Source of the DNA: Daphnia carinata
Lineage: Eukaryota
DNA length: 64,000 nucleotides
Direction of reading: 5' to 3'
NCBI RefSeq assembly: GCF_022539665.2
Contig: NC_081334.1
Span: 434,001-498,000 of the forward strand
Position numbers and translations under genes: made by a program. Numbering within the stretch: the first letter of the stretch is position 1; each line of letters opens with the position of its first letter. The notes under the pieces were generated by a model. That model was given only the letters and a program-made list of their open reading frames with translations. It was not told the DNA's origin and ran no database searches. Positions 9,804 through 56,172 of this stretch are shown here, piece after piece.

Positions 9804-10496
9804 TGTAAAGAAGCAAATAAATGTTTTTATTTGATATGCCTTCCCGTTTATTCTTTATGTATGACTCATGTGTTACGCCATATAAACTGCGCAGTAGTGT
9901 ATTATATTACATCGGCACCTTGCCGCTTAGCAACATTTGTGATTGGCTGCTTAGGCGTTGATCTGTATTGCACCATCAACTTAATATATCAAATTTCATT
10001 AGTTGCGACATGTAATTGCGCAGTTGTTAATTGCTGTGCAATATGCGAGGTTTCGTGGTGAACCAAGATCTGAGTAAGTTCAGTTGTCGATGAGCCTCTG
10101 ACTCTTACAGGCGGAGTTCAAGTTCAGCTAGTGCTCCCCATTGATAAATTTGTGCAAGTGAATTGAGCTGTGTCACGTGCTTGTCTGAGTGTTCGGTTCA
10201 CCCATATTGTTTACCCACGTGCCGACGAACTCCTGTTAACGCCGCCTTCTCTTATATCCTCGCCCGTGCTCCGCTCAAGCCACCGCGGTAAGCTTATACT
10301 ACAGTATCATATTACACTCCGACTTCTCTTTCTTTAGTCTGACTCCTTTTGTCTTATCCCAAACTGACTTCTGTACCGCTTAGCCCTACTTGGATAAATA
10401 TAAATCATCGTGTGGGTAAATCGCCTCCGAGTTCGATTCATTTCAATTTGTCTTAATTCCGTAAAGTACATCTTCTCACAGAGAAGATGCTTTACA
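9804..10496 (+). repeat. 5' LTR of element B
   Basis: TGTAAAG...TTTACA; direct repeat of 26061-26754. Confidence 0.97.
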
Positions 10497-10530
10497 TAAT
10501 GGTGGCAGCGATTTCTCGGACTCACCCACA

Positions 10531-13329
10531 ATGACTGATAATATTTTCCACGGTAGGCCTAAACTTTCTCGTACGCCTGTTGCCGCTACTAACATTTCTG
10601 TTGAGCCTACTATACCTATTGACGAATCTGTAGCGAGAGCTATAAATTTTGAAGCATTACCCACTGCTAATTCTGCCGTTACTGATAAGTTTACGGGGTG
10701 TAAGACTTCCGATAGGAAAACAAACGCTATCAAAAAGTCCGCTTCCCCTGTTTTAAAACCAAGAGCGATTCCTGATAGCTCTCAGAAGAGGAAGTTAAGA
10801 TCAAATTCCGCATACGAGTCGGTACCTGGTCTAGACATTTCGAACGCTCGCAAACCTCAGGTCCAGCGCACAGAGAAAACCTCGACTATTACGAAGTCAC
10901 CCTCCCTTTTAGACAGAATTGTAGGACATCTTTCGCCAAAACGAAGGTCCGTTTCCCAGCAAACTTCTCCCACCAAATCTTTCTCGATCGCTGTTTCGAA
11001 TTTCTTTTCGGAAAAGAGAGCAGCCAATGGAAGAACAGCTCAACGTGAGTCTCAAGCATCTTATGCAAGAAGTCAAAAAGAACGAAAACAACATCTTTCA
11101 GTCACCGAAAAGCCAGCTGCCGTTCCTATTACTAACCCTCCAAAGCCTCAAGGAGAGGGAGAAGGATTTTCAGTCAAGCGACCCGAAAATCTGGGATCAC
11201 CTTGTCCAGTTGATGCTCGACGTCCAGAGGAATTACCACGTGGAACAGCCAACGCAGACGAATTGGAAACAACCGAGGATTCTCCTGAAGTACCTGACAT
11301 CCATTCTGGAAGTGAAAGTCAGTGGACCGATACCGAAGAAGACGAAGAAGCAGACAGGGGAGGTTGTGACGGAGCTCAAGGGGATTTTCACCCGGCACGC
11401 GAGACAGGTTTTGACTTGTCTACACGGTCAAATCTACAATCTCATCGATCTGCAAAAGATCACACCAACGAGAGCGGGAAGAATTTTCGGGTTCGTTCCG
11501 AGAAAAGATATCGAAACCACCGACGAGGACGGCAGATACGTGGAGATAATCACCGTAGTGAGCGACATATCAATTCATCTGGAAGAAATCTTACTGGCAT
11601 CACAACGAGCATTCTTGAAGGAAGTGAACAACCTAGCGTCGTACCTGGAAAAACTAAACTTAATCAACAATTTGGAGGTGCTGCAACCAGAAATTCAACT
11701 TCTCTTGGACAAACTGAACAATTTTCCGGAAGCCAACAACCCAGTCAACGCACAGGAGGCCAACAACATCAAACCACTAATCACGCAAACGGAAATACGA
11801 TTGAAACAAGCGCTGTTGTGCATACAAACGAACATTACCCAACTACAAGCCACACTGGCCCAACACACATCGCCGCTGTCGGAAACAACCTCGCAAGAAC
11901 GGCGGACACACAGCAGACGCCAACGTTGCAGACGATCAATCAATCGAATCGTTCTTCACATCCAACCCTCCAGCCGACCGGAAGAGATACCAGAGGGCAT
12001 CAGGCAATTTCGAGTGGCATTCCAGAACTCCCTCCGAATCCACAACGAAGAACAATAAATTTCCCTTCATTTAATCCAAACATGGCTAGTTCTTCATCCC
12101 CATCACGGGCAGCCACGGTCAACGACTTGAACGATCTTCAGACTACCCAACATACCTTCGCGCGCTTACAACTGCTTCCTTCTTTTTCAGGGAGTCCAAT
12201 TTCTCGTTTTGATTCCTGGATCGAATCCTTTGAAAGCGTAGTTGAGGGGTCAGGATGGTCAGAGGAGAAGGTTATTCAGATGTTGCGAGCAAAAATGACT
12301 GATAAGGCTTTTTCCGTAGTGCAAAATATTGTCAAAGATCATCCTCATGACTATACGTCTATTAAAGAAGCTTTACTTGATCACTTTCACGGGGACGAAA
12401 ACGTTGACTTGTATATTAAGAAATTTAATAAGGCTAAACGGAAACCGGGAGAAAAAATAATTGATTATGCTCATCGTCTTCAGGAAATCTTTAAAAAAGC
12501 GTATCCTGTAGGCCATATCGAGCGTTCCTCTTCAATTATTCTCATGCAGAAATTTATCGAAGGTTTGGATTCCAAGTTACAGGCGAAAGTTAAGTACAAA
12601 GAATTTGGCGACTTTAACGCACTGGTTGCAGCGACACGCGTTTATGCTGTTCGCTTGGAAGCACTCGAATCTGACCGTGAAAAACATGAGTTTGTTAGGG
12701 CGATCGACGAGTCGAAAGGTGCAGAAAATACTGAATTGCATGAGATTAAGCAGATGTTAATCGATTAGAAAGCAATAGTCAATCAGGCCGTCGCAAATAT
12801 ACGTCAAGGGAACAAGATCGTAGACACTCCGAAATCGGAGAAGGGTGAAATTAAAGATGCGCTGCGCGAGCTCAGTCAGGCGGTCAAACAACTCCAAATT
12901 AATAAGAAGGATAATGTTTCTTCTTCGGCGGGTGCCCCATATAAAAAAAGGGTCTCATTTCAAACAGGCAACGGCAATCGGGAAAGAAACTGGAAGACAA
13001 ACCCTCCACCTTTCCCCAATAGTAACACCCACCCGTATCAAGGAGATAAGAACCAAAATAGGCCTACAAATTATATGCCATCTTCGCCAAGATCTAGTCA
13101 TAATCCGAACAATGGGCCTACTGAGAATGCAATAACTTGCAACTATTGTGGGTTTCGGGGTCACACACAATCGGAGTGCCGTAAATTTCAACGGTATATG
13201 TTGGAACAAGCACAGCCCCCAATTTGCTATTCTTGCCGTGAGATCGGCCATAAATCGAACAATTGTCCCAAGTATAGGGCCAGTAGGCCTAATATTCCGG
13301 GTCCCCCTCAACATCAGGGAAACCAATAA
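10531..13329 (+). CDS. Element B gag: long low-complexity N-terminus, capsid region, two CCHC knuckles; one internal TAG at 12766-12768
   Basis: ORFs 10531-12768 and 13075-13329 are in the same frame. Capsid-like FSGSPISRFDSWIESFE..KRKPGEKIIDYAHRL; knuckles CNYCGFRGHTQSEC and CYSCREIGHKSNNC. Confidence 0.85.
11027..12058 (+). CDS. Overlapping alternative-frame ORF in element B, helical/coiled-coil protein of unknown function
   Basis: A 343-codon ATG-initiated ORF lying entirely within the open gag frame, with Leu/Glu/Gln heptad-like composition. Confidence 0.55.
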   Translation: MEEQLNVSLKHLMQEVKKNENNIFQSPKSQLPFLLLTLQSLKEREKDFQSSDPKIWDHLVQLMLDVQRNYHVEQPTQTNWKQPRILLKYLTSILEVKVSGPIPKKTKKQTGEVVTELKGIFTRHARQVLTCLHGQIYNLIDLQKITPTRAGRIFGFVPRKDIETTDEDGRYVEIITVVSDISIHLEEILLASQRAFLKEVNNLASYLEKLNLINNLEVLQPEIQLLLDKLNNFPEANNPVNAQEANNIKPLITQTEIRLKQALLCIQTNITQLQATLAQHTSPLSETTSQERRTHSRRQRCRRSINRIVLHIQPSSRPEEIPEGIRQFRVAFQNSLRIHNEEQ

Positions 13330-13382
13330 GTATCAACTGTAACTTCGGGTCAGTTGATAGGGTACCTCAGTTGAAATCCCGA
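13317..13382 (+). promoter_or_regulatory. Programmed -1 ribosomal frameshift signal (gag-pol) of element B
   Basis: G GGA AAC at 13317-13323 in the gag frame, a 7-nt spacer, then stem TATCAACTG (13331-13339) / CAGTTGATA (13351-13359). The -1 frame is open into pol. Confidence 0.85.
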
Positions 13383-15601
13383 CAAGTTGCGAAATTAACA
13401 ACAATAATAAACGAATCGACCCCCAGAATTCCATTACAAATTTTTCAGATCCCTTTACAGGCATTATTTGACACAGGCGCGTCTAGAAGCATAATTCACG
13501 AGAAGATATTTCAAAAGCTTCCCTCGAGAAATCAAGTAACCTGCAGTCAGCTTGATTTCGATTTATACGATGTGGGAGATAACAAGTTGCATACGCTGGG
13601 TAAAGTTACATTGCCCGTACGTTACGGAGAGTCCGTTTTACGGCAAGAGTTCATTGTTACAAATGGTGTTTCTGAAGACTGTATCCTTGGATGGGATGCA
13701 ATCCAGAAACACGGGTTTCGGCTTGACGGAGAAGCCAAACGTATTTACTTAGCCAGGGATGAGCAGGGATCAGCCATCTCTAGGGCACCAGACATGGCAA
13801 TTACGACGGTCAAAAACACGACGCTATTTCGTCAGACGGCGCTCGTAATCGCAGCGCAAATGACAGGTTCATTTCCGTATGTCCCCCCTAATAGCACATT
13901 TATCTTTACCCCAGCAGAGGATTTGCCGGCCGGTATTTTTATTGAAGAATTTGTTGGAACTGTATCGGGAGATGGGAAATATCAAATTATGGTCGAAAAT
14001 CATTCGTTAAGTCAAGTCATACTTCCTAGGAATACAACCTTAGGCCAAATCGAAGTAATTCATAACGTAATTGGTAAGATTGCCTTACGTCAACCAGAGG
14101 GAAAGCCTACACAAAAACGGGAGCTAGCTTTAATTTCGGAAGTCGACGCTGAATTTCAAGCTCCGCTCTCAAGTTTATTAAATGACTTTCATGACTTGTT
14201 CGTAACAAAAGACTCGGAATTAGGGAGCACTAATCTCATTAAGCATACGATCGATACCCAAGGAAGAGGCCCTATCCGGCAACGACCCTATCGAGTTACG
14301 AACCACCAAAGAAAGATACTGGAGGATAAAGTGCAGGAAATGATGGACGCAAATGTAATACAATATTCTCATTCTCCATGGGCGTCACCTGTGGTTTTGG
14401 TTGAGAAGAAAGGCGGAGACGTGAGGTTTTGCGTTGATTATCGGAAATTAAATAGCATTACAAAAAAAGATTCATTCCCTATGCCAAGGATTGATGAGAC
14501 GTTAGATAAATTATATGGGAAGAAATTTTTTACGACCCTCGATTTGGCCTCCGGCTACTGGCAAATTCAAGTGAATGAACCAGACATTGAAAAAACCGCT
14601 TTTGTAGTAGAAAACAATCTTTACGAGTTTAAAAGGATGGCGTTTGGCTTGTGCAATGCACCTGCCACATTTCAAAGATTAATGAATTATGTACTGAAAG
14701 ACGTTTTGGGACATAAAGCGTTAGTTTATTTGGATGACGTCATAATATTTTCGGATACCTTTGATAATCATTTAACAGATATTCGCGAAATTTTCACTTT
14801 ATTGAAAAATGCCAATTTGAAATTAAAGCTTAAGAAATGTCAATTCGTTAAACGTTCTGTAAATTATTTGGGCCACGTCATTTCGACTGAGGGAATTAAA
14901 CCTGATCCTGGAAAAATCGACAAAATATTAAATTACAAAACGCCTACTTCTGCCGATGAGGTGAGGTCATTTCTCGGCTTAGCAGGTTATTATAGGAGAT
15001 TTATTCCCAACTTTGGTTCAATGGCAAAACCTCTGACTAGGTTAACTCACAAAGACCTTAGTAAAAGACCTTTTACCTGGGGGGACGAAGAACAAGTCGC
15101 GTTTGTAAAGTTGCGGACATCCCTGGTTACACCGCCGGTTCTCGCATATCCAAATTTTAATGAAAAATTTATTCTTTTCACTGACGCATGCGACTATGGT
15201 ATTGGGGCCGTCTTATCTCAAATGCAAAACGGTCAAGAGCACCCGATAGCGTACTCCAGTAGGCAGTTAACCAAGGCGGAAATGAAGTATAGTACAACCG
15301 AAAAAGAAGCTCTGGCAGTCGTGGATGCCATTAAACATTTCCGTCACTATCTCTTGGATAAACCCTTTGAGATAATTAGTGACCATCGTCCTTTGCAGTG
15401 GCTTAAAAATCAGAAGGATAATAATGGAAGGTTAGGGAGGTGGGCCATTTTATTGGCTGCAACAAATTATGAATTAAAATATAGGCCAGGCCATGTTCAC
15501 CAGAACGCGGACTGTTTGTCTAGATTAAAAATAGCTAGCATTCAAGCTGGGAAGGATATTAAATTGATCTGCGAAAAACAACAAGAGGACGACCTCTGTA
15601 T
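13317..15601 (+). CDS. Element B pol, 5' part (protease, RT, RNase H), cut by Copia C
   Basis: LFDTGAS, RFCVDYRKLN, LDLASGYWQ, YLDD, FTDACDYGIGAV, SDHRPL. Confidence 0.95.
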
Positions 15602-15992
15602 TGTTAAGAATATCAGCCACGTCACAACGCATCGCCCACCAGATGGCACTGAATGCAATAGAGAAGCTGCCGTTCTCTACACAGCCTTCATGGATGCTGT
15701 TAAACACCTCCCCTGTCTACTTAATCATCGTCTGCTGCGCCGTCATCACGCTCTGTCTGACGGCTGCCCCTTTATCTCTCAAGTGATTTATTTCTCTAGA
15801 ACTAACGCTGAGTTCACTTTCTCAATACTCACATGGTAAATATCAAATACTTCATATTGTATGTACATTGATGCAGATATGAGATTGTTAGATATTTCAT
15901 GTACCTGTGCAAAGAATACAGAAGCCTCGCTCTCATATCCTTGTGTATCTAACAGGTTATGGGCCCAGTACCTTCAACCAGTTATACTCAAG

Positions 15993-16990
15993 ATGAATTC
16001 TATGCGAGATGTCAACCATATTGCCAAATTTAATGGGCAAAATTTCCCACTATGGAAACTTGGGCTCTGGATCCTACTCCAACAACACGAGCTGGTCAAA
16101 GTTGTAACTGGAGAAGAAACCGTCCCTGTTGAGGTACATTGTAACACAATTACACATTCCAACAGATGATCTTATTGTTTCCAATCGATTTGTAGACAAC
16201 ATCAGATGGAACTGTTACTAATGCTGCTGCTATATCAGAATGGCATACCAAAGATACACTTGCCCGTGGATATCTAATATCCACTATTGAGAGCCAACAA
16301 CAGAGATCTCTGATCAATTGTAACACAGCCAACGAGATGTGGGTTCGTCTATCGGCTCAATACCTCAGGAATGCTGTCGAGAATCGTTACGTCCTACAAG
16401 CAAGATTTTTCGAATACCGCTACAACCCCGACCATGATATTATGGCACACATCACAGAAATAGAAACAATGGCCACTCAACTCACAGACATCGGAGCAGA
16501 AATCGATAGTATTTCTATTATAACCAAAATAATCTGTACGTTGCCACCCAGCTATCGGAGTTTCATTACGGCTTGGGACAGCGTCCCATTTACAGATAGA
16601 ACAATGGCCTTACTTACATCTCGGCTACTAAAAGAGGAAGAAATGGCCAAACGATGGAGCACCGGTCGTCCGGACGCCCAAGATGCTGCTTTCTTCGCAC
16701 ATCACTTCCCATCTCACTCACAAGTTCCCAACTCCTCATATGTAACACGTGATCGTGAACGTGGAAGGCGTGGCAGTTCGGGCAACCGTTCTCATAGCAG
16801 ACAACAACTTTACAGATTCTGCACTTATCGTCGCTGCAACATCGCTGGACACACACTTGAAATTTGTCGAAAAAGAATCAGAGACGAACGAGAAGCATTA
16901 AGAAACAAGAATAACTTCACTGCTACCCCTGCCGTTACAAACCAAGAAGAAGGAATAGTAAAAGCACCACGAACAGCATCTCGAAGATGA
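15993..16990 (+). CDS. Copia C gag, join(15993..16133,16196..16990), with a 62-nt GT-AG intron
   Basis: Exon 1 MNSMRDVNHIAKFNGQNFPLWK...VPVE splices in phase 0 to TTSDGTVTNAAAISEWHTKDTLARGYL..MWVRL. The product is collinear with the intronless gag of Copia D. Confidence 0.8.
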
Positions 16991-19900
16991 GGCGTATCTA
17001 TCTTCTTCATGTTTCACTGAACGAAGTGTTAAAGATTGGTTTGCAGATTCAGGATGCACACAGCATATGACCGACCAACGCTCCCTTTTCTGCAATTTCA
17101 CTCCAATCTTATCCGACACGTGGACTGTTAATGGAATTGGCTCTTCCCGTCTGCTTGTACGGGGATATGGAAATATTGAATTCATCGTAACGACTGGTGA
17201 CACACAACGAGTAATCAACATTGCCAAAGTCCTCTATGTACCACGTCTAGGTACCAATCTCATTTCTATTGCTGCAGTTACCGACGTAGGTCTGTCGGTC
17301 CACTTTGTTGAAACCAAAGTAACTTTTGAGAAAAATTTAGCCATCATCATGATAGGCGAACGAATCGGGAAGAGCCTCTATCATCTCTCAATAGTTCCAA
17401 AGCTATCAGATAATCAGCCCCTGAAGGAGTCAGCCTGTTTAGCAACTCCGTCACCAAACTCGATCACCATATGGCATCAAAGGCTGGCGCACGTAAGCTA
17501 CAAAACTATTTTTAATATGGCAACAAAACAACTGGTCGACGGTCTTCATCTACCGAAAAACACCACCCCTCCAACTCAACCGTGCATAGGATGCATTTCT
17601 GGTAAAATGCAGCGTTCACCATTCCCAGTTGGACGGAGCAGAGCAAATGAAGTTGGACAACTGGTCCATTCCGATGTATGTGGCCCCATGCACATATCCA
17701 CACCGGGAGGGGCAAAGTTTTTTGTGCTGTTCACCGATGACTTCAGCGGGTGGCGAGCCGTTTACTTCCTAAAACAAAAGTCCGAGGTAGCCGAATCTTT
17801 CAAAAGCTTTGTGAGCGTTCTTCGTAGTGAAACAGGACGCCTCGTACACACACTGAGAGTGGATAACGGTGGCGAATTCATGAGTCATTCATTCAAAACC
17901 TGGCTATCAGACAAAGCCATCAGGATGGAATCCTCAGCACCCTATTCACCGGAGCAAAATGGAGTCTCGGAAAGAGCTAACCGCACGATCATGGAAGGTG
18001 GGCGCTCTCTAATTCACGCCAAACATCTACCATTGGAACTGTGGGGAGAAGCCATTGCCTGTACTGTATATGTTCTTAATCGTGTCAGCAATAGTACGTC
18101 TTCAACAACACCTTACCAAGCTTGGCATGGGAAAAAACCTAACATCTCTCATCTACGTATCTTTGGATCGCTTGCCTTTATTCACATTCCAAAAGTAGAA
18201 AGACGCAAATTAGAATCCAAAAGCTTCCAGTGCTTCTTCGTTGGATACTCACTCACCCAAAAGGCATATCGATTTTGGGATCCAGTCGGTAGAAAAATTA
18301 AAATAAGTCGGGACGTCATCTTTGATGAAAACTCTAACACTTTATCTCGTTTTTCTCCTCAAATAGAAACTAACAATTTCGATGAGCTTTTTTCAAGACC
18401 GGTCAACCTTACAACACCAGCCCAAGAGAAAATCAACCCTGTCATCATGATACCCCAGGTTTTAGAAGAAACCAAGAACGAAACAGAATCATCATCTATT
18501 ACCCCGGAACTCTCAGGCAGTCCAGCAGCTAATCTACAGCACACCTCACACCAAGTGGAAGCCGAGTCCGACCCTTCTTCATCAAGCATAGAGACAATAC
18601 TTACCGAAACCAACACCCACAATGATGTACCCTCATCTATACGCTGCTCCCCATACCCTTTACGAGTGCGTGAGCCAAAACGCCAATGGAAATCTCTGCA
18701 GTCAACTGTCACTCAACGCACAGAAATTTACGAGCCAACTACCTATTCTGATGCGATGGAATGTGATGATGCACTTCAGTGGAAAGTGGCTATCCAAGAT
18801 GAGTATGATTCGCTGATACGCAACGGGACATGGTATCTCTCTCCACTCCCACAGAATCGAAAAGCCATAAAATCACGCTGGGTGTTTAAAGTGAAACCGG
18901 GCACCGTAGACTCCCCTCCACGTTACAAAGCAAGATTAGTTGCCAAGGGGTTCTCACAACGACCCGGAATCGACTTTGAAGAAACATTCTCGCCAGTTGT
19001 AAAACATGATACACTTCGAATAATTTTATCTCTTGTCGCCAGTCTTGATTTAGATATGTCGCAGCTTGATGTCAAGACGGCGTTTCTATATGGGGAACTG
19101 GACGAAGAAATTTATCTTCAACAACCCGAAGGATATATTTCCCCCGGTCAGGAAAACTATGTTTGTCGGCTACAGAAATGCCTGTACGGTCTTAAACAGG
19201 CCTCAAGAATATGGAATCGTCACTTTGATAGATTTTTGAAGAAATTTGGCTTACAATCTAGTAACGCAGACCCATGCCTTTACTCTCGCCGCAACAACAA
19301 TGAAATCCTCTTTGTTGTCATCTGGGTTGACGATGGTCTTGTCATCAGCAACAATCGAAATCTGGTAACTGAAATAATTGATTACCTAAGCAAGATTTTT
19401 GAAATGCGGTGCACTCCCGCTAACTACTTTGTCGGTATGTCCATCAATCGAAGCCGAAAAGACAAAACCTTATTCATTTCACAACCAGATTACATTAAAA
19501 AAATCCTTAATCGTTTCCACATGACAGACTGCCATCCTAAAAATATTCCAGCACAACCCGGATACCACCTGACTCAAAATGTTGGAGAGGAGTTTCTAAG
19601 CAACGTGCCATACAGGGAAGCGGTCGGGAGTCTAATTTACCTGGCGATAGTATCTCGCCCAGACATCTCATTTGCTGTTGGCCAAGTGGCACAATTTTCA
19701 GAAAACCCACAACAACATCACTGGGCAGCAGTTCGGAGAATATTTGCATATCTCAAAGGTACACAGGAACATGGAATTCGCTTCGGCCCGACAAACGACC
19801 GCTTAATTGGATACACTGATTCGGATTTCGCTGGGGATACGGCAAGCCGAAGATCAACCACGGCATTTATTTTTCTTCTTAACGGCGGACCAGTAGCATG

Positions 19901-20285
19901 GACTAGCCGTCGCCAATCTTGCGTTGCATTGTCCTCCACGGAATCTGAATTTGTAGCTGCCTGTGAGGCCACGAAGGAAGCAGTCTGGCTCAAACGCCTG
20001 ATGGAAGACATATCACCTGGATGGATTGAAACTATCCCCTTAATGTGTGACAATCAGTCAGCCATCCAACTCATCAAAAATCCGGTTTTCCACCAAAGGA
20101 CCAAACACATTGATGTAAAATATTACTTCATTCGCGATCGACAAGAAACCGGCGACATTAACATCTCGTATATATCCACAAACGATCAGCTTGCGGATCC
20201 CTTGACTAAGAATCTACCTAATCCCCGTTTTTCGGCACTACGGGAATTAATGGGAATTGTACCTGTCCCACCAAAACTAAACTAA
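16963..20285 (+). CDS. Copia C pol (protease, integrase, RT, RNase H)
   Basis: WFADSGCTQHM, WHQRLAH, HSDVCGP, RVDNGGEF, YKARLVAKGFSQ, WVDD, YTDSDFAG, RTKHIDVKY. It is offset from gag by +1 near 16960. Confidence 0.95.
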
Positions 20286-20861
20286 TTTCTTTTTTATTAT
20301 TTTAGATGGTGGTAGAATCCATATAACAGAAGTACAACTATATATGCTATCACCATCACTGAAGCAGTATCAATTCAATTCAAAGAATCAAGAAGAAGAT
20401 CTACTCACCTCACTATTATTTGCATTATTTCTTTCTTCTCTGTTGTCTTTTTCAACTTTGAGTTTGTGTTCTTGTGTTCTCTTCCATTCTTACATGTCTG
20501 AGAGGGAGTGTTAAGAATATCAGCCACGTCACAACGCATCGCCCACCAGATGGCACTGAATGCAATAGAGAAGCTGCCGTTCTCTACACAGCCTTCATGG
20601 ATGCTGTTAAACACCTCCCCTGTCTACTTAATCATCGTCTGCTGCGCCGTCATCACGCTCTGTCTGACGGCTGCCCCTTTATCTCTCAAGTGATTTATTT
20701 CTCTAGAACTAACGCTGAGTTCACTTTCTCAATACTCACATGGTAAATATCAAATACTTCATATTGTATGTACATTGATGCAGATATGAGATTGTTAGAT
20801 ATTTCATGTACCTGTGCAAAGAATACAGAAGCCTCGCTCTCATATCCTTGTGTATCTAACA

Positions 20862-22528
20862 TGTATAGCCATCAAGAATTATCTAGAAGAAGGAGAGCTG
20901 GATGAAATTTTTAAATTGTCCAAACCCGAGTGGGTAGAATACTTTATAGACGGGAACTGCCATCTCAGAGTAATAAAAGGAACGACACCCATCATCAATT
21001 AGTTTTGCCATTATCCCTACGCCACCTAGTGCTTAAAGAATTACACGACGCACCGATGGGTGGCCATTTGGCATTTTATAAGACCTATATGAAAGTCAAA
21101 AATAATTATTATTGGCCCAACATGAGAGGCGATGTTAAAGAATATTGCCGGGCTTGTGAAGTTTGCATAGCCAACACTGCTTCACCCTATCGAGCACTTT
21201 TGCATCCGCACGAAATTGCGAAGGCTCCTTTTGATGTAATTGGAATGGACTTTCTGGGTCCTATTACACCAGTTTCGCCCAATGGTAATAGTTACATTTT
21301 AGTTATTACAGATTATTTTAGCCGTTGGGTTGAGGCTGTTGCTTTAAAAGATCAAACTGCTCAGACAACAGCAGAATGTGTATATAAAACTGTTATTGTT
21401 AGACATGGTATGCCTAAGGCAATTATTTCTGATCGTGGGACAAATTTCACGTCCAAGTTATTTCGCTATTTTTGTAAAAAAATTGAAGATCAATCAGAGG
21501 TTAACCACCGCTTATAACCCTGCTAGTAATGGGGAGACGGAAAGGTTCAATCGAACTTTAACGTCTATGTTAAGAAAAGAATTAAAAGACGGCGAGCATG
21601 CCAATTGGGAAGAAATATTAGATGATGTTTTATTTGCGTATCGTAGCTCGGTCCACTCTTCGACATTGGACACTCCATATTATTTACTTCACGGTAGGGA
21701 CCCAAATATTCCTATTAACGAATTTCTTAATGCATCTCCCAAAACATTCAAATCTTCTTCTGACTATGTTGGGAATCTGACAGAACGTTTGCGTTATAGT
21801 TTTCAAAGAGTTAGAGAGGAAAGCGAAAAAGCTAGAAAGCGCCAAAGGGAACAATATAACAAACGCGCGAAAGAAAAACGATATGTGATAGGCGATCGGG
21901 TGTTATTGGATATTCGAGTAGTTAAGGAAGGAGATAGCAAGAAATTTACTTCGAAATATAAAGGGCCTTATAGAATAGTAAACGTTTATTCAAATAATAC
22001 TGTAGACATTGCTGATAATTCATATATATGTCAGCGGACGCATGTAAATAGATTAAAACCCTTGTATGAAACAATGCTGTGGAAACATGAGCATTGTCCG
22101 CCACTTGAGACCCCTTTGGAATTCGAGAGCCGATTCCGAAAGTCTATTGCGACTCAAACTAATGTGCGTGAACACGAGCCCGATGTCGAAACCGCAAGGC
22201 AACAAAACACCGAGTCCGAAGCCGTATCAGAAGTGATATCAGACACTTATTCGGCAAATCATCAACTTGTGCGAGAAGACAATGTGATCGGCCCGTCTCA
22301 TCTGTCGTTCGAAGGACGATTAACCTCGAGTGACAATTGCGATGTGACGAGTGATGCTCAGCATCCAATGCCACTTTCCGAAAATACTCCTATATACGCT
22401 GATAGTGATTCCGACCTTCAACAAGTAGAGCCCAAGATGATGTGACAGCAGCGTTATTGCATCAAGAAGTCACCCGACGCCCTCAGCGAAATCGGAGAAA
22501 ACCGATTCGTTACAGGGACGAAATGTAG
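20862..22528 (+). pseudogene. Element B integrase, frameshifted
   Basis: HHCC zinc finger LHDAPMGGH..CRACEVC, core IGMDFLGP..ISDRGTNF..NGETERFNRTL, GPY/F motif KYKGPYRI. Frameshifts near 20930, 21480 and 22440. Confidence 0.92.
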
Positions 22529-22700
22529 CGTCATCATACATCATAGTTTCGATTGCCGAACCAATACCGAGTGATTACTATATAAACCGTACGTTAAGTG
22601 AAGGAAGACACAACTTCTTGTACTCTCTGAGAACAACGACGACAACTGTTCTGTCTGGTTTGCCATTTCTCCACGTACAAAGAAGCGTTAAGAAGCCAAC

Positions 22701-23225
22701 ATGGACAACAAGTCTGAATCCATCTCTGAGCCCGTGACCAACGACTGGATACCTATGGTATCCATCCCACTCCCCGTCGCGGAGGCCCTCTTGGTAGACC
22801 TCACGACGTCGTCCGGAGATGCCTCGACGGCCGAACGTGACGCGCCGGATTCGCCAGATCCCTCACCAATCGACGACGAGGAGACCGCGGCCCGTAACCC
22901 GCCGGGGACGTCCGAGATGGAGGATGCCATCGATTTTAGCCGCGGCAGACCCCGCACCTCGGACTGGCACCTCGATGCAGCCTGGGAGCAGAAGCAGCTG
23001 GAAATCAAGACAAATCAGTTGATCGCCCGTCTTCTCATCACCCTGTATGACAAGAAATAGAGTGACGCCGTCTTCACCCTAAAGGCGATCCTCGACCTGG
23101 ACCCCGAAAGGCGCCATCCACCGCTCTATGGTTGGACATCGTGCCACTGGGACTTGCCCGAGAAGAGACCCAGCACGGACGATCAACAGAAGGACCCCAA
23201 CGCAAAGAAGCCGAGATACTTCTAA
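22701..23225 (+). CDS. Element B accessory ORF (acidic N-terminus, basic C-terminus) with one internal TAG at 23058-23060
   Basis: The frame stays open past the TAG as SDAVFTLKAILDLDPERRHPPLYGW...EKRPSTDDQQKDPNAKKPRYF*. The ORF is GC-rich, preceded by TATATAAA (22579-22586) and followed by AATAAA (23423-23428). Confidence 0.55.
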
Positions 23226-24338
23226 GTCGTACGAGGACAACCGAAGAAATCGAGGAAGGAGGAAGCTTTTTCATTCGACCCTCTTTCACTCCTCGTTATG
23301 TGTTTATTCCTGATATTTCTCCTTCAATTTTTATGTTTACATTTACCATACTTTAATATTTACCTTTATTTTGATTTCACATACCAATATTCGCTTTAAC
23401 TCTCCTTGCTGCTATCCATCGAAATAAACTCATTGGTTGCTTAATCGTTTGTCAAACCTATGAACGTATTATCTGTTACAACATGTATCTTGTTTTTTCA
23501 CGTCGTACACTTTAACTTTCTCAATTTACGCCCCGTAGTCATTCCCTTGTTTGACAGCCCATAGTATAAGTCCACATAGATTTTGATAAGTAGAGCCTTT
23601 TGAGTAGAGAAAAAAAAATAAATAACAAAAAATCTTTTGCTTCAGAAAAAAAAATTTAGCTTGATCATATTCTTTTTGCGGATTTTCTGAACCGCAATGT
23701 CAAATTTCGTTTCCTATTTCCCTTCCTATCTCCTACACGTCACTTTCGTTATTCTCTCAACGAATAGGTCCAAATCGTAGCCGTAACTTTTATACTCTCA
23801 TTCCAATATGCCGCGCAATACTGTTCACTTTCCCTTTCGTTCGTACACTACAGCTTGGCCATAGCCAACATCAAGAATACCGTATTAGCGCCGCCTCCCT
23901 TTTCCTGGAACTAATACTACTCTTGGACCTTGGACCTTCGCGGCAAAATCTCTTCCCGTCGCAAACTTTTAAACGTTTCTTTTCTTGTCCTCCCTGATCA
24001 ACTGTCCTGTATTTTCTTACTTTCCCTTTCCGATAATTATGGTCATCTTTTTCTCTTTCCAACGATACTAAATAATATAAAAAACAAGTTGTCCTTCCCC
24101 CTCAAAACAAAACTTTATTCTAGTGCCCATTTTCCTTTCTCTTTTCCGTAGCCTACTAATAAAGCCGACGGGAAAAGCCGTTGACCTTTCGACAGCCGTA
24201 GGCTATTTCCCACTTTCACTTTTCCCACTTCTTCTTGTATGTTTTTTTTGTGTTACTTAGTTAAGCCCACACGATGACATTTTTCTTTTGTTAAGTCACA
24301 TATTTCCTTTTGTCTGTATGTACCGGTCGGATATAGAA

Positions 24339-26027
24339 ATGTCCCCCTCTGCATTCCTGCTGCTATTATGCGTGTACGGATTACATTCCCAGGCCTTCGA
24401 GACTACCGTATGCAATTGCGCGGAACCAGTGAAGGTGGGAATTCTTCAATTCTCCGATGAGAATTGTCAACCGACATCCACCGATATTAAAGCCACCAAG
24501 GTGAAATACGCCGTGTATAGTGAAGAACGCGCCGCGACTAAATTCCCGGGTTACATCTGTGCCCGTTGGAAAAATATCCGACACATCACAATGACCTTCT
24601 TCGGGCAACTATTAGTTGTGCCGGACAAAATCCCAATTGATACTACCCCTGCCGACTGCAACGAAATGATTGGCAACAAGAGGTGCAATGATAACCGGAT
24701 GACTTTTGTCGACGGAAAATTTGTGTTCGACAATGAACCAGATATCTCTGGATACTGGTTACAAACAATCGATTCGTCAATCATAAACTGCGTTCTCGAG
24801 AAAGTCGAACTTTTCCAGCAAAAGGAGGATGCAGACTTCTCAACACCCATCGGAATTGCTTCTGCTACGTCCGGGAATTTGTCCCACAATCACTTAACAC
24901 TGATTTGGGACAAAACCTACACACAGAAAACCAAAGTAACTACCAGACTCGTCGAAGACGGCATCGGTATACTGACCCGATTGCCAGGAGAAAAACCACT
25001 CCTTAGACTCCAAGATGACAAAAACCAATTGGACTTCCACCTGACACCAGTACTGCGCTGCGTTTCAGTACAACAAAATTGCTCCAATAGAACTTCTTCA
25101 TATGAAATCGTCGGCCAATCAAAACTCTTCGTCACGACGGCAGCCATAATGGAAAAAGCAACCCCAGTGGAGACCCGAGCGCAACTCGGCGCCGAAAACT
25201 TAAATATTCCGGCCAATATCCAATACATCCGTGATCAACTCACCGACCACGAGAATGAATTGGCACGACAGGTTCAACTACTTCAATGTGAAGCTCGTAA
25301 AGCCAAACATGAAAGGGCCGTCACAACCGCCCAATATAATGGATGGCTAGCGGCCTCACAATTAAACTTACCCCGGTGCACGAAATTACAAGCATTCGGG
25401 AAGACGGTCGTATTAATTCAATGTCAGGCCTTAAATGTCACATTTGAGACTGTATTGACTTCATGCGGACCGCAACCAAAATTCCAAAATTATACGATTA
25501 ACCTCGATGGCTGGGAACTCGTAAAATATTCCCCTTGTTATTGGACAAATGGATTTGTCAATTTCAATAACAAACCCTATGCCTTCCGTAATAATACGTG
25601 GGAACAACTCGAAGCCACAATTGTATTGCCTGAGCAAACGCTGGCACACTCTTTCCGCTACGAGAACGTCGAATTTTTCGACTACGAACACCAAAGTAAC
25701 CCGGCATACACCGACAATATGCTTAACCACATGAACATCATGGCCGACATAGCAGCCGTGATCAACGAACATCCATCATCCGAATTTACGTCGCACGGTA
25801 AACCCAGCGCCACAAATATTTTCATAACGGCCTCCAGTGTCGGAGCTTACACATCTTGGTGGGAAACAATAAAAAATTACTTCTTCATCGGCATCATGTG
25901 CATCCTCGTATTACTCTTCCTACGCATCTGCTACTGTTGCGGTCTCTTCAAGATCTTCTGGGTTATATGCCGTCGCCCTCATAAACGTTCAACATCCTCC
26001 GAATCCATCCCCATGCATCAAGTCTGA
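24339..26027 (+). CDS. env: Element B env-like type I membrane glycoprotein, probable class III fusion protein
   Basis: Signal peptide MSPSAFLLLLCVYGLHSQA, Cys-rich ectodomain with N-glycosylation sequons, C-terminal TM YFFIGIMCILVLLFLRICYCC and a short tail. It lies immediately before the 3' LTR and is uninterrupted. Confidence 0.85.
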   Translation: MSPSAFLLLLCVYGLHSQAFETTVCNCAEPVKVGILQFSDENCQPTSTDIKATKVKYAVYSEERAATKFPGYICARWKNIRHITMTFFGQLLVVPDKIPIDTTPADCNEMIGNKRCNDNRMTFVDGKFVFDNEPDISGYWLQTIDSSIINCVLEKVELFQQKEDADFSTPIGIASATSGNLSHNHLTLIWDKTYTQKTKVTTRLVEDGIGILTRLPGEKPLLRLQDDKNQLDFHLTPVLRCVSVQQNCSNRTSSYEIVGQSKLFVTTAAIMEKATPVETRAQLGAENLNIPANIQYIRDQLTDHENELARQVQLLQCEARKAKHERAVTTAQYNGWLAASQLNLPRCTKLQAFGKTVVLIQCQALNVTFETVLTSCGPQPKFQNYTINLDGWELVKYSPCYWTNGFVNFNNKPYAFRNNTWEQLEATIVLPEQTLAHSFRYENVEFFDYEHQSNPAYTDNMLNHMNIMADIAAVINEHPSSEFTSHGKPSATNIFITASSVGAYTSWWETIKNYFFIGIMCILVLLFLRICYCCGLFKIFWVICRRPHKRSTSSESIPMHQV

Positions 26028-26060
26028 TTACGAGACGTAATCTCACGCCGCCGGGAGTGA

Positions 26061-26754
26061 TGTAAAGAAGCAAATAAATGTTTTTATTTGATATGCCTTC
26101 CCGTTTATTCTTTATGTATGACTCATGTGTTACGCCATATAAACTGCGCAGTAGTGTATTATATTACATCGGCACCTTGCCGCTTAGCAACATTTGTGAT
26201 TGGCTGCTTAGGCGTTGATCTGTATTGCACCATCAACTTAATATATCAAATTTCATTAGTTGCGACATGTAATTGCGCAGTTGTTAATTGCTGTGCAATA
26301 TGCGAGGTTTCGTGGTGAACCAAGATCTGAGTAAGTTCAGTTGTCGATGAGCCTCTGACTCTTACAGGCGGAGTTCAAGTTCAGCTAGTGCTCCCCATTG
26401 ATAAATTTGTGCAAGTGAATTGAGCTGTGTCACGTGCTTGTCTGAGTGTTCGGTTCACCCATATTGTTTACCCACGTGCCGACGAACTCCTGTTAACGCC
26501 GCCTTCTCTTATATCCTCGCCACGTGCTCCGCTCAAGCCACCGCGGTAAGCTTATACTACAGTATCATATTACACTCCGACTTCTCTTTCTTTAGTCTGA
26601 CTCCTTTTGTCTTATCCCAAACTGACTTCTGTACCGCTTAGCCCTACTTGGATAAATATAAATCATCGTGTGGGTAAATCGCCTCCGAGTTCGATTCATT
26701 TCAATTTGTCTTAATTCCGTAAAGTACATCTTCTCACAGAGAAGATGCTTTACA
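26061..26754 (+). repeat. 3' LTR of element B
   Basis: Direct repeat of 9804-10496. Confidence 0.97.
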
Positions 26755-27724: not shown

Positions 27725-28716
27725 TGTTGAAGTATTAAATACTTGCTTGTCTTCAATCTCATTTTTGGGTGTTTATGGTTGGTACGGTAGCCGGAGAAAT
27801 AGGACCTGGAGAAATAGGACCCGAAGATTTAGGACCTATAAATAGGACCTGGAGAAATAGGACCTGGAGGAATAGGACCCAATCTTCAAACATTTTTTGA
27901 AGGGTCCTATTTCTCCATATTGCGGGTCCTATTTCTCCAGCCTTAAAGTCCTATTTCTCCATCATAAAAAATCAATGTACAATTGGTTTTCCTATATGTT
28001 AAAAAAAACCCGAACGGCCTATATTGGTTTCTGCACTCCAAACACCGTTATCAATATGACGCCTCTTCATTGCATTACAACTTTTTTTTTAAATTTACAT
28101 TCATAATATTTTTGCAGGATTATATCCTTTTTCTATTGCTTTTTAGAGCTCATTTAATAGAAAAGTAATTTTGCTTACACAGTATTTGAATTTTTGCATT
28201 TTACATTTTCTTACTGGTGTTTTCAGGCCTACCATCACCCGCCCTTTACTAGTGTCACTATTCACTTTTTTTTTCTTCGTGCCTCAATAAGAATTCTTGG
28301 GAGGGCGCATAAGTACCTCTTAATAAACAGATAACTAAGAAAATTATTACATAAAAATAATTTAATAAACGTTAATTTCATAATAAAACACTGTTTGCCC
28401 TTGCGCAAAATATTGTTTTTTACGATATATATGGCAACGGTTACTACTGCAATAATCAGACCCAGTCACGTCTGACGCAACTGGGGGATTAAGGCACACA
28501 AAAAATACAATACTGACAACGGTCAGGTTAATTTCTTAACTTAATATTCTGGTCAGCGTTTGGTGGGTGGTACACAAATGATGTTTGGTTAGGATCCGCC
28601 AGCCAGTCACGTCGGCTGCACGGATATGAAAAGAGCAATGTTAGACAGAAAGGAATATAGGGTTGCGAGGGTACTTACGTGGAAGCCATGTCTTTTAAGT
28701 AGACGGAGAAGTTGCG

Positions 28717-29428: not shown

Positions 29429-30106
29429 TCACCTAGGGTCGGTCCTGTTTTTTTTGTCGTCGCTCATCGGCGTGGATGATCGTGGTTCCGGTTCCTCCTG
29501 GTTACTCCAAAGGTCGGCTACTAAGTTCTTCCAATTGGTGGTTTCCCAGTCGTCCTCGTCCTTCCTTTGGGAGGGAATCCGGTACTGGCGTTCGACGTAT
29601 CGTGCTGCGGCGAAATCTTCTTCGTCGGAGTCCAAGGAGTAGTGGCTGCTCACGACGCTGACGTGGTGTTCTTCGCCTTGCATCCTGGCGATGCTGTCGT
29701 TTAACGCCGCGACGTCCAGCCCGTTTTGCTGGATATCGCTGTCTGGCGTCAGACAGTATGGTGATCCCTGGGGGTGAGCGACCGCGCCCTCCGCTGGGTA
29801 TAAGATCACGGTCGACGTACCTGAGGAGAACGAGTCGTCCTCCCAAGACACGTCTTCGACAAGCAGGGAGGACTCGTCCGTGTCGTCGGTGACGTCGGAT
29901 CCGTACGAGACTTCGTCGTCGTGAGGGTAATCCACACAACATAACATTTCATCGTCGTCGGTCACGTCCTGCACGTCGCTGTCGTGGGAGGGGTAGTCCG
30001 CGCAATACAAGATGTCTTCATCGTCGGTGACGTACTGCATGTCGCTGTTGTTGGAGGGGTAGTCCGCGCAATACAAGATGTCTTCGTCGTCGGTGACGTC
30101 TTGCAT
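29429..30106 (-). CDS. Acidic protein of unknown function inside element F
   Basis: 225-aa ATG ORF with three near-identical units (MQDVTDDEDILYCADYPS) and a degenerate fourth. It ends just before the pre-PPT hairpin. Confidence 0.5.
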   Translation of the reverse strand: MQDVTDDEDILYCADYPSNNSDMQYVTDDEDILYCADYPSHDSDVQDVTDDDEMLCCVDYPHDDEVSYGSDVTDDTDESSLLVEDVSWEDDSFSSGTSTVILYPAEGAVAHPQGSPYCLTPDSDIQQNGLDVAALNDSIARMQGEEHHVSVVSSHYSLDSDEEDFAAARYVERQYRIPSQRKDEDDWETTNWKNLVADLWSNQEEPEPRSSTPMSDDKKNRTDPR

Positions 30107-35560: not shown

Positions 35561-38500
35561 ATGTCTTTTCTATCATCTAAGGATTTTGTCTCAATACCAC
35601 GCTTCGACGGAAGCAATTTCAGTGTGTGGCATTTCCGTCTCAACATCCTTCTCGAACATCATAAGCTTCTTGACGTTGTAAAAGGTGCATCCAAATGTCC
35701 AACATCACCTCCTGCAACTGTTGCAGAAATTTCAACTTGGAAAGAGCAGGATGTAGCAGCACGCCACATCCTTGTGTCAACCGTTGATGAAAGTGTTCAG
35801 CACACCCTTATCAACTGCACAACTGCCGCTGACATGTGGACAAGAATCACCACACAACATCAGAAGTCTTCAGCCGAAAGCATTTTTTTCTTGCAACAAG
35901 AATTTTTCCAGTACGAATATGTTGAGGGACATAACATTATGTCCCATGTTTCTGCCATCGAACATATAGCTATACAGCTCAAGGACGCGGGAGTGACTAT
36001 GGATGACACTGCCATCATGGCTAAGATCATGCTGACACTTCCAGCCTCATACGATCATTTTCATTCAGCCTGGCACAATGATCCTGCAGGGGAGAAAACT
36101 CTGGCCTCACTTACGAGCCGCTTGATCCAGGAAGAAACACTCAAAAAAGGTCGTGGAGCCTGTGTCGATACAAACAATTCGGCCCTCCTAGCACGAAACT
36201 CACGTCAGTCTGGCGGAACAAACACGTCATCGACGACCAGCCAAAAGGGAAAATGGGCCAATCATGTTTGTGAGCACTGTAAGAACAAAGGCCACTCAAT
36301 TGCAGTTTGCAGAACCAAGAAAATGGATGATGCCATCGCCGCAGGCATAGCAACTGCTCTACAAAAACTGAAAGTAGGACCAGGGGCCACTGGCCTTATC
36401 GCTACACAACCACCAGAAGAAAACAATTTGATTCAAGATCTTGAACCTGAGTTTGCCTTTTTTTCAAGCTCGACCAAGAACAGTTCATCAAACTGGTATG
36501 TCGACTCCGGAGCGACGATCCATATGACAGGTCAGACAATATTTTTCACAAACTATAAGACAATCGACCCAAGTCAGTGGCATGTACGAGGAATCGACAA
36601 TCATCAAGAGCACTTACAAGGAGTGGGCATGGGAGACATCAAGATTCAACTGGATGGAAACAACCGTTTCGCGTTACTGCGAGACGTGCTTTACGTGCCT
36701 AATCTAAAAGTGAACCTTTTTTCAGTTGGAGCTGCTGCAGACAACGGTTTTGAAACCCGTTTCAGTGCAACACGTGCTTGCATTTACCAAAAAGAGAAAC
36801 TGATTGCAACTGGAACACGATTGAATCAAAAACTATACCACCTCGATGCAGTCGCGTTACTACCGAAGACCAATATCCAATCGACGTTCGCTCTGGTCTC
36901 CGTCACGAAAAAGCCGTTTGAGATCTGGCATCGTAGATTTGTCCACGTCAACTCGGACACAATAAAAAGAATGATGACTGAGGAGCTGGTGCGCAGTCTA
37001 AGCGTTGAATCCCTCTCTTTCAAGAAACCATGCACTGGATGTGAACTGGGTAAGAACCATAGAATTCCCTTTCCAAAGTGTGGTCGTGAACGAGCGTCAA
37101 AAATTGGTGGAATTGTACATTCAGATATATGTGGTCCTATGGATCGTCCGTCCCCAGGAGGCTGCCTCTACTACGTCCTTTTCAAAGACGATTTCAGCGG
37201 TTTCTGCGTCGTAAACTTCATGAAAAAGAAATCGGAAGTTCCAGCGCACTTCAAAAATTACCTACACAAACTGACAGGAGATACTGGCCAAGATGTCAGG
37301 TATTAAGAAGTGATAACGGAGGAGAATACTTCAGTGACGAGTTCCAACTCTATCTAACAAAAAAAAATATTCTTCACCAGACAAGTGTGGCCCGTACTCC
37401 CCAGCAGAATGTAGTGGCAGAGAGAGCAAACCGAACCATCATGGAAGCCGCCAGAAGTATCATCCAAGAACAGTCAGTCTCTAAGGAACTCTGGGCGGAG
37501 GCCGTTAACTGCTGTGTGTACGTGCTGAACCGAACAGCTGGATCAACCATCAACTCGACACCCTATGAAATATGGTACGGTAAAAGACCCCGTGTTGATC
37601 ACTTGAGAGTGTTTGGATCAACTGCATTTGTCCATGTCCCAAAAGAAGAACGAAAAAAGCTTGACCCTAAAGCAGATCGTTGTATTTTTGTTGGTTATAG
37701 CGAAACGCAGAAAGCCTGGAGATTTTGGAACCAGAGTACTCGACAAATAAAAGTCAGCCGTGACGCGACGATTTACGAAAAAGAGGGTACTTCTGACACC
37801 GCTGATGAAATCGTCATCACTGCCCCGTCAAAACCTATTTTGACTGAAATGAACGAAACTGATGAAGTCCAAGAAGAACCTACGGATGCAAGTGATCAAC
37901 AAGAAGTGACGACTGCGCCGATGCCTGTTAATGTTGGGATCCAACGTCCACAGCGTGGATGGAACAATCGTGAGAAGCGGCTGGGTCTTCAAAATGAAAT
38001 TCAATCCCCTTGAATCCATTCCCACTTTCAAAGCACGACTCGTCGCAAAAGGTTACTCGCAGGTGCCCGGACGTGACTACTTTGAAACTTTTTCCCCGGT
38101 TGCCAAGCACAACTCAATCCCCGCTGTTTTGGGAATAGTCGCTGCGCTAGACCTGGATGTCAAACACATAGATGCGACGAACGCGTTTCTTAATGGAACA
38201 TTAGAAGAGGAGATATATATGCAGCAACCAGAGGGTTTCATAAATCCTGGAGAAGAGAATCTCGTGTGTCGACTTCACAAAAGCCTCTATGGCCTAAAGC
38301 AGGCATCAAGGACCTGGAATGATGTTGTCACTTCCTGCATGCTGGATTACGGTTTCACGCAAAGCACGTGCGATCCATGCGTTTTTGTGCTGGAGAAGAA
38401 AGAGTCGTACACAGTAGCCGCTTTCTGGGTTGACGATGGTTTGTTAGCAAGCAACAAGCCAAGTCAACTCGACGATGTCATTCAGCACGTCAAAACCCGT

Positions 38501-39391
38501 TTTGAAGTCACCTCAAGAAAGCTGGAGTATTTTGTGGGACTGAAAATTACTCGCAACCGCTCGAAACATCAACTCACAGTTGCGCAACCACTTTACTTTT
38601 AACAGATGTTGAAAAGATTCAACATGGCAGAGTGTGATCCAAAGTGTGTTCCAGCGGATCCAAATACCATCTTAAGTAAGTCGATGTCGCCAACTTCCCA
38701 ACGAGAAAAGTTCGAGATGGAAAAGGTACCGTATCGAGAGGCAGTGGGGGCTCTGCTGTATGCTGCAATAACAACACGCCCAGATATCGCTTACGCAGTT
38801 GGACAAGTCTCGCAATTTCTCGAGAAACCTGGTCGAGCACACTGGAAAGCAGTCAAGTGGATTATGGCTTACATCAAAGGGACCGTCGATTATGGTATTG
38901 TTTTCGAAGGAGACAACGCGGAGCTTTTGGCCTACAGTGACGCCGACTTTGCCAGGTGTACCGACACCCGCCGTTCCATCACTGGATGCTTCCTCCAACT
39001 TAATGGACCACTGGGGTGGTGCAGTCGTCGCCAAGGAAATGTGACATCGTCCACTGCAGAAGCCGAGTACACTGCTGCATTTGAAGCCCCAAGAGAAGCT
39101 GTTTGGATGAAGGGCTTCCTCAACGATGTCGGGGTAGTGCCGCAAGAAAAGCCTACTATTCTTTTCTGCGACAACCAGTCGGCAATAAAACTCTCTCTTA
39201 ATCCTGAATCACATAGAAGAAATAAGCATTTTGATGTAAAGCTCCATTACCTCAGAGAGAAACAACGCCGTCAAGTTATCGCCACTACATACATCAGCAC
39301 CGACAAACAATTGGCAGATTTCTTCACCAAACCACTCCCCGGTCCAAGATTTAGGATGCTACGTGAAGCAATCGGAGTGAAGAAGATTTGA
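35561..39391 (+). pseudogene. Copia D gag-pol, disrupted
   Basis: IPRFDGSNFSVW, CEHCKNKGHSIAVC, WYVDSGATIHM, HSDICGP, LRSDNGGEY, FKARLVAKGYSQ, WVDD, YSDADFA, RNKHFDVK. There is a frameshift near 37300, an internal deletion near 37960 and a stop at 38600-38602. Confidence 0.95.

Positions 39392-56140: not shown

Positions 56141-56172
<32 letters not shown>

What the first reader, a model, noticed from the sequence alone, without database searches (positions are those of the whole stretch)
16134..16195. Copia element whose gag is split by a frame-breaking 62-nt spliceosomal intron
Seen: GAG|GTACAT...TTTGTAG|ACA. The intron is 62 nt (not a multiple of 3) and contains an in-frame TGA (16167-16169). 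Splicing gives a Gag collinear with the intronless Gag of Copia D in this window. C's LTRs look identical, so it retrotransposed recently with the intron retained. Inference: only spliced RNA can be translated while unspliced RNA is what gets reverse-transcribed. That separates mRNA from genome, implies trans packaging and offers a host-controllable splicing switch. It differs from the known Drosophila copia splice, which removes pol to make Gag.
Basis: partly seen in the sequence, partly recalled or inferred. Interest (0 to 1): 0.8.

Follow-up and report, generated by a model that had tools for sequence, protein, structure and literature searches.

The report
Copia lineage keeps obligatory gag intron
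A jumping gene of a Daphnia-like water flea has a short intron-shaped break near the start of its capsid gene, at the same codon in many related families; it likely must be spliced out before the full proteins can be made, yet new copies keep it, which suggests the element is translated from one RNA and copied from another.

Summary
Copia C (15602-20861; identical 353-bp LTRs, 5-bp target duplication) has a 62-nt GT-AG break after gag codon 47. Two metagenome relatives have 69- and 73-nt GT-AG introns at the same codon. In public protein clusters one family appears as exon-1 read-through, as intron tail plus exon 2, and as a precisely joined protein, including a 1417-aa Gag-Pol. Across the lineage (RT 52-82% identical to C), 20 of 20 long ORFs lack exon 1, and 64 of 65 informative cluster members do. 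So the intron is old, very likely spliced, and usually kept through retrotransposition. Not shown: junction reads (no run listed, no genome held), which RNA is packaged, any host switch. New caveat: C as assembled also has a gag/pol frame break that relatives lack. Retained introns are known in Ogre, BARE1, EVD and Penelope-like elements; ten literature searches found no intron this early in gag that gates all proteins. The scan noted related cases on other DNA, none of this lineage.

The parts
15597..15601 (.). left target-site duplication (TGTAT)
   Evidence: same 5 bases at 20862-20866
15602..15954 (+). 5' LTR, 353 bp, TG...CA
   Evidence: identical to the 3' LTR
15955..15968 (+). primer-binding site directly after the LTR (same 14 bases in L001, L002 and Copia D; likeness to the Drosophila copia initiator-Met site is recalled, not tested)
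15993..16133 (+). gag exon 1, 47 codons
   Evidence: differences to L001/L002 mostly synonymous (10/5, 16/4 synonymous/non-synonymous codons); aligns to N-terminus of intronless Gags; no Pfam hit alone
16134..16195 (+). 62-nt phase-0 GT-AG intron, 32% G+C, in-frame TGA at 16167-16169
   Evidence: same position in L001 (69 nt) and L002 (73 nt)
16196..16990 (+). gag exon 2 (Retrotran_gag_2 PF14223, basic region, Cys/His knuckle), ends in a stop in this copy
16955..16990 (+). gag/pol frame break in this copy as assembled; relatives read through without a break
16962..20285 (+). pol ORF, 1107 aa without internal stop: protease-region beta-barrel, gag-pre-integrase, integrase, SH3, RVT_2, in Copia order
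20500..20508 (+). polypurine tract
20509..20861 (+). 3' LTR
35561..37306 (+). gag-pol start of Copia D, intronless comparator

Best explanation
This Ty1/Copia lineage carries an old, host-sized GT-AG intron after gag codon ~47 that is likely removed by the host spliceosome to make full Gag and Gag-Pol, while new copies are likely made mostly from the unspliced RNA, so the intron survives retrotransposition. Shown: the intron's position, ends and retention in DNA copies across the lineage, and the existence of precisely joined proteins. Inferred: splicing in vivo; two RNA pools. In the model, spliced RNA is the mRNA; unspliced RNA stops translation after about 58 residues in C, is left free of ribosomes and is packaged by Gag made from its spliced sibling. 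Why unspliced RNA wins is open: an intron-borne packaging or export signal, a separate unspliced transcript class as in BARE1, or simple ribosome-free availability.
For: Same-codon GT-AG introns of 62, 69 and 73 nt (remainders 2, 0, 1 on division by 3; all block read-through), 26-32% G+C against 38-44% in exons; size matches Daphnia pulex median introns of 63 and 77 bp (PMC5427498, passages). Exon 1 is under coding constraint. Among 33 proteins that lack exon 1 but extend upstream, Gln (as CAG would give) stands 16-18 residues before the anchor Trp in 21 of 33, against 0 of 28, 1 of 26, 2 of 18 and 4 of 33 in neighbouring windows. One 90% cluster holds read-through (P0092), tail (P0094) and joined (P0093, P0032) forms; another holds tail (P0001) and joined (P0099) forms. 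P0353 is a joined 1417-aa Gag-Pol whose RT is identical over 255 columns to exon-1-less P0356. Retention: 3 of 3 DNA loci; 20 of 20 in-lineage long ORFs lack exon 1 while 10 of 10 clean outgroup ORFs hold the N-terminus; 64 of 65 informative cluster members lack it. C has identical LTRs and a target duplication. Intron sequence is more conserved than four-fold sites predict in 2 of 3 pairs.
Against: No junction read was seen. Joined proteins cannot be traced to RNA or DNA; several are database gene models (P0012, P0030, P0036, P0063, P0091, P0105) and may be predictions, and some degenerate joined forms sit on 4.6-5.0-kb contigs (P0032, P0024, P0043), which could be intron-lost DNA copies. Some exon-1-less ORFs may be cut by contig ends. 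The 16-18 window was set after seeing the data and the rows are related. P0162 looks like an in-frame, stop-free 78-nt version, and several families have a Met at or near the exon-2 start, so the block is not absolute everywhere. No conserved RNA structure in the intron; the third conservation pair was not significant (131 of 1000) and splice signals alone may explain the excess. C itself has a gag/pol frame break.
Confidence: 0.7

Rival explanations
1. Packaging is not selective. Spliced RNA is also copied and yields intronless insertions, but these are poorly expressed or silenced without the intron and die out, so only intron-bearing lines persist.
For: Degenerate joined forms on element-sized contigs (P0032 4,652 nt; P0024 family 4,958-4,959 nt; P0043 family up to 4,957 nt). 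An intron placed in Ty1 is lost on transposition (review passage, PMC12786077). Copia D, on the RT tree among or beside this lineage, is intronless.
Against: Fresh intronless copies should then be frequent, yet 1 of 65 informative members in ten clusters is joined, and that one is a database protein record.
Confidence: 0.15
2. The intron is mainly a regulatory switch: splicing is blocked or allowed by tissue, stage or small-RNA silencing, so protein-making and genome-making happen in different cells or at different times.
For: The unspliced RNA of C is unproductive, as a switch needs. Small-RNA or tissue control of transposon splicing in Drosophila is recalled, from no call.
Against: Nothing here measures splicing by tissue; conservation of position fits a constitutive intron equally well.
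Confidence: 0.08
3. Splicing is real but optional: unspliced RNA makes a shortened Gag-Pol from a downstream start and is packaged in cis, with the spliced form supplying full-length Gag.
For: Intact 1,300+ aa ORFs of several families begin with Met at or next to the exon-2 start (P0257, P0270, P0254 clusters); one GenBank deposit was annotated from there (ACB38663.1).
Against: In C and the P0353 family the first in-frame Met is residue 48 of exon 2; the Met is not conserved; exon 1 is strongly conserved.
Confidence: 0.05
4. The segment is not an intron but a private insertion, an assembly error or a stretch bypassed by ribosomes.
For: 22 GT-AG pairs nearby would restore the frame by chance; the window has other frame breaks.
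Against: Same position, GT and AG ends and free length change in L001 and L002; acceptor signature in many families; precise joined forms.
Confidence: 0.02

Closest known systems
Ogre elements of legumes (Ty3/Gypsy; PMC6317226 passage; primary paper not held)
   Same: An intron inside the coding region is kept in genomic copies and is spliced from a subset of transcripts to allow translation of downstream coding sequence.
   Different: [quoted passage not shown] Different superfamily and kingdom.
BARE1 of barley (Ty1/Copia; PMC3735527, passages and first part of Discussion)
   Same: Short (104-nt) host-type intron in a Copia; distinct RNA pools; only unspliced RNA is packaged; no DNA copies of spliced RNA found.
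   Different: In BARE1 splicing creates a stop after gag (Gag-only mRNA) and unspliced RNA makes the polyprotein; here the logic is reversed. Two promoters were not tested here.
EVD and other Arabidopsis Ty1/Copia; Drosophila copia (PMC5580714, passages)
   Same: Major-spliceosome GU-AG introns conserved in position across a Copia set and retained in the genome.
   Different: Introns cover the protease or all of pol and yield extra Gag; the unspliced RNA is the Gag-Pol mRNA.
Penelope-like elements (PMC8557442, passages)
   Same: Retroelements that keep introns after retrotransposition; significance stated as unknown.
   Different: Not LTR elements; the shared intron is in the 5' UTR and overlaps the promoter.
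Daphnia Copia elements (Rho 2010, PMC2996953; CoDpu clade, PMC3587641; passages)
   Same: Host group of all named close hits; element size and LTR length fit.
   Different: Neither main text contains 'intron' or 'splic' (0 occurrences); supplements not read. Assignment to a named Dpul_C family or to CoDpu was not tested.

Membership tests
Ty1/Copia LTR retrotransposon | TG...CA LTR pair with 4-6 bp target duplication, PBS and PPT | tested here: met
Ty1/Copia LTR retrotransposon | domain order gag, protease, integrase, RT (RVT_2) | tested here: met
Ty1/Copia LTR retrotransposon | autonomy (continuous or recoded gag-pol) | tested here: inconclusive
   pol is open but in another frame from gag in C; relatives continuous; mutation and assembly error not separable
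major (U2-type) spliceosomal intron | GT...AG ends, A+T-rich, host-typical length | tested here: met
   (3 of 3 loci); PMC5427498 medians
major (U2-type) spliceosomal intron | position conserved while length changes freely; precise removal gives a homologous protein | tested here: met
major (U2-type) spliceosomal intron | junction reads in RNA | not testable with these tools
   no run was listed
major (U2-type) spliceosomal intron | branch point | not tested
   no host splice model available; not scored
Gag-only splice (Drosophila copia, BARE1, EVD) | intron at or after the end of gag whose removal abolishes pol | tested here: not met
   intron is after codon 47; joined form P0353 is a full Gag-Pol
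Ogre-type intron | removal needed to translate downstream coding sequence | tested here: met
   by sequence only: read-through stops in C, L001, L002
Ogre-type intron | located between protease and RT of a Ty3/Gypsy Tat element | tested here: not met
BARE1-type separate RNA pools | only unspliced RNA found in particles; second promoter | not testable with these tools
   needs particle RNA and 5' end mapping

The most novel reading that the evidence does not exclude
A whole animal Copia lineage has reversed the usual LTR-element rule: its genomic RNA is non-coding by design, every protein comes from a spliced sibling RNA, and the intron itself marks the RNA to be packaged, so replication is obligately in trans and hangs on one host splicing decision.
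Probability: 0.35. Interest if true: 0.82.

Novelty: new variant of a known kind. Interest (0 to 1): 0.64.

Why it matters
Intron loss is the classic proof of retrotransposition, and known LTR-element introns leave the unspliced RNA coding. Here a 60-75-nt intron near the start of gag has been kept across families with RT only 52-82% identical. It offers a small natural handle on an old question: how an LTR element chooses between translating and packaging its RNA. It also means that Gag N-termini of many Daphnia-type Copia elements are mis-called by ORF-based annotation.

Tried and rejected
Own genome: none held, so no copy survey. RNA runs: no RNA holder listed; this is no evidence either way, and no reads were laid. 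Viral and prokaryote genome collections: no relative. Exon 1 alone: no Pfam hit, one short homolog. Conserved RNA structure in or around the intron: consensus covariation term unfavourable (+1.58), single-sequence z-scores -1.74 to +0.05, different folds in the three loci: no support. Extra synonymous conservation in exon 1 as a sign of cis signals: significant in 1 of 3 pairs only: not claimed. Programmed frameshift at C's gag/pol break: unlikely, as 13 of the first 63 homologs read from the knuckle into the protease motif in one frame and the pol-frame residues before the stop match them; not excluded. Single origin of the intron: gag tree puts all 23 tail rows on one side of a weak branch (SH-aLRT 82, quick tree) with Copia D on the other side, but the RT tree leaves D in an open fork inside the 18-row group (85/96): gain after D's split and loss in D cannot be told apart. 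P0215 was labelled as a tail form but is a gene model of a D-like element and should not count. P0206 and P0267 lack the N-terminus for unrelated reasons.

Full report
Observation. Element C is a Ty1/Copia retrotransposon at 15602-20861 with two identical 353-bp LTRs, a TGTAT target duplication, a primer-binding site and a polypurine tract. It is inserted in the pol region of a Gypsy element. From the ATG at 15993, 47 codons run to ...GAG, then 62 nt from GT to TAG (16134-16195) with a TGA in frame at 16167-16169, then an open frame with the Copia Gag domain. Read-through gives 58 residues. All named close homologs are from Daphnia pulex, D. magna or D. carinata; the window's species was not determined.

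Is it more than chance? Locally not by itself: 22 GT-AG pairs near here would restore the frame. The comparison decides. The only metagenome scan returned 2 related loci out of 78 pattern matches. Both have an intron at the same codon boundary, GAG|GT...AG, 69 nt in L001 and 73 nt in L002. The three lengths leave remainders 2, 0 and 1 on division by 3 and all block read-through. The introns are 26-32% G+C, the exons 38-44%. Exon 1 differs mostly at synonymous sites (10/5, 16/4, 18/6 synonymous/non-synonymous codons), so it is coding. D. pulex median intron lengths are 63 and 77 bp in two assemblies (PMC5427498, passages).

Protein collections show all three expected products. Of the first 100 proteins, 26 hold both exons; 24 have 16 or 17 residues from the junction to the anchor Trp, as the called splice predicts, and 2 carry an in-frame tail. 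One 90% cluster contains P0092 (exon 1, then Val as GT would give, then a stop), P0094 (hydrophobic tail ending in Gln, then exon 2) and P0093/P0032 (exon 1 joined to the same exon-2 start); another contains tail form P0001 and joined P0099. P0100 reads exon 1 into an L002-like intron. P0353 is a joined 1417-aa Gag-Pol, 74% identical to C's pol, with an RT identical to exon-1-less P0356. Among 239 proteins then held, 33 lacked exon 1 but extended upstream; 21 of 33 have Gln 16-18 residues before the Trp, against 0 of 28, 1 of 26, 2 of 18 and 4 of 33 in neighbouring windows. No row was dropped from that count, so it includes outgroups, one joined form and one gene model; the rows are related and the window was set after looking. 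A precisely joined molecule needs a spliced RNA at some stage, whether the record is a transcript or an intron-lost copy, unless it is only a gene-model prediction; several are models, but P0093, P0099, P0009, P0022, P0024 and P0043 come from sources that also deliver unspliced read-through and tail calls, which suggests plain ORF calling on contigs (inference).

Retention is the rule. In the search for long ORFs, 20 of 31 hits belong to the lineage and none of the 20 holds exon 1; 10 outgroup hits hold their N-terminus; one is garbled. In ten clusters, 133 of 331 members were listed; 65 cover the gag start, 64 lack exon 1 and 1 is joined. Some may be cut by contig ends. The lineage spans 41-87% identity to C in Gag and 52-82% in RT. 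A quick gag tree puts the 23 tail rows on one side of a weak branch, with 82 continuous rows on the other; the RT tree groups 16 exon-1-less ORFs, P0353 and the intronless Copia D (85/96) without resolving D. One origin is plausible, not shown.

Mechanism. Shown: position, ends, age and retention of the intron; joined products. Inferred: the host spliceosome removes it to make Gag and the single-ORF Gag-Pol seen in relatives; new copies come mostly from unspliced RNA. Since unspliced RNA of C codes for only 58 residues, the particles that copy it would be built from spliced RNA, that is in trans. How unspliced RNA is chosen is open. The intron is more conserved than four-fold sites predict in two of three pairs (5 and 0 of 1000 simulations; 131 of 1000 in the third), a hint of a signal, but splice signals may explain it and no shared fold was found. 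Rivals: intronless copies are made and die out (degenerate joined forms on element-sized contigs fit this, their rarity does not); a regulated switch (untested); optional splicing with downstream initiation (some families have a Met at the exon-2 start, C does not; P0162 looks in-frame and stop-free).

A caveat on C. Its gag frame ends at 16988-16990 and pol lies in another frame, whereas close relatives read straight through. C as assembled may therefore be non-autonomous, or the break may be an assembly error. This does not touch the intron, but C's recent insertion does not prove that C itself made the proteins.

What is known. Drosophila copia, BARE1 and Arabidopsis EVD splice at or after the end of gag to make extra Gag, the unspliced RNA being the polyprotein mRNA (PMC5580714, passages; PMC3735527, passages and first part of the Discussion). 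BARE1 packages only unspliced RNA from a separate pool, so two pools are not new. Ogre's intron must be removed to translate RT-RH-INT (PMC6317226, passage; primary paper not held). Penelope-like elements keep introns (PMC8557442, passages). The Daphnia LTR survey and the crustacean Copia paper have no occurrence of 'intron' or 'splic' in their main texts (supplements not read). Ten full-text searches (listings and abstract starts seen) showed no report of an early gag intron in a Copia element; passages of PMC7175516, PMC12477816, PMC5718144 and PMC12786077 added none. Subscription journals, Repbase and Dfam were not searchable. Earlier notes of this scan list retained introns in other retroelements, none by sequence or place for this lineage.

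Verdict. A real, lineage-wide feature (about 95% that it is a spliced intron), a new variant of intron-retaining LTR elements with reversed logic. The two-pool model is likely (0.7) but rests on comparison, not on RNA data. Interest 0.64.

Noticed in passing
window 16955-16990: Frame break between gag and pol in Copia C, right at the gag/protease linker; close relatives are continuous. Mutation, assembly error or recoding not separated.
   Followed up: partly
window 6873-40641: Nest of LTR elements: outer Gypsy-type pair (6873/40376, 99%), inner Gypsy (9804-26754, 694-bp LTRs, one gap), Copia C inside it, Copia D (35337-39665, 98% LTRs, broken frames).
   Followed up: partly
window 24261-26027 (+): 588-aa ORF in the inner Gypsy with no Pfam hit, a hydrophobic start, many Cys and a C-terminal hydrophobic stretch; looks like an env-type third gene.
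   Followed up: no
proteins P0012, P0064-P0072 and P0009, P0073-P0077: Related families whose Gag ends at a shared stop just after the knuckle in every listed member that was printed; possibly gag-only non-autonomous elements that also keep the intron (291-aa RefSeq models against 229-aa contig calls).
   Followed up: partly
protein P0162: Exon 1, a 26-residue Val...Gln stretch and exon 2 in one frame: candidate in-frame, stop-free 78-nt version of the intron.
   Followed up: partly
L002:1-2212: Copy with a large internal deletion from gag into the pre-integrase region that still keeps the intron.
   Followed up: partly
L001:4680-4720: Frame break just after the Cys/His knuckle, beside a GAG|GTATGT donor-like motif that C lacks.
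   Followed up: no
window 27725-28244: Fragments similar to Copia D's flank and LTR (72% over 480 nt, inverted; 97% over 62 nt).
   Followed up: no
window 29429-30157 (-): Acidic 242-aa ORF with three 66-nt tandem units (29915-30112).
   Followed up: no
window 45844-57688 (-): Three long acidic, low-complexity ORFs (1873, 677, 534 aa) without Pfam hits; probably large exons of one host gene.
   Followed up: no
protein P0327 (ACB38663.1): A GenBank Daphnia pulex 'integrase' of this lineage starts at the exon-2 Met, so the first exon was not annotated.
   Followed up: no
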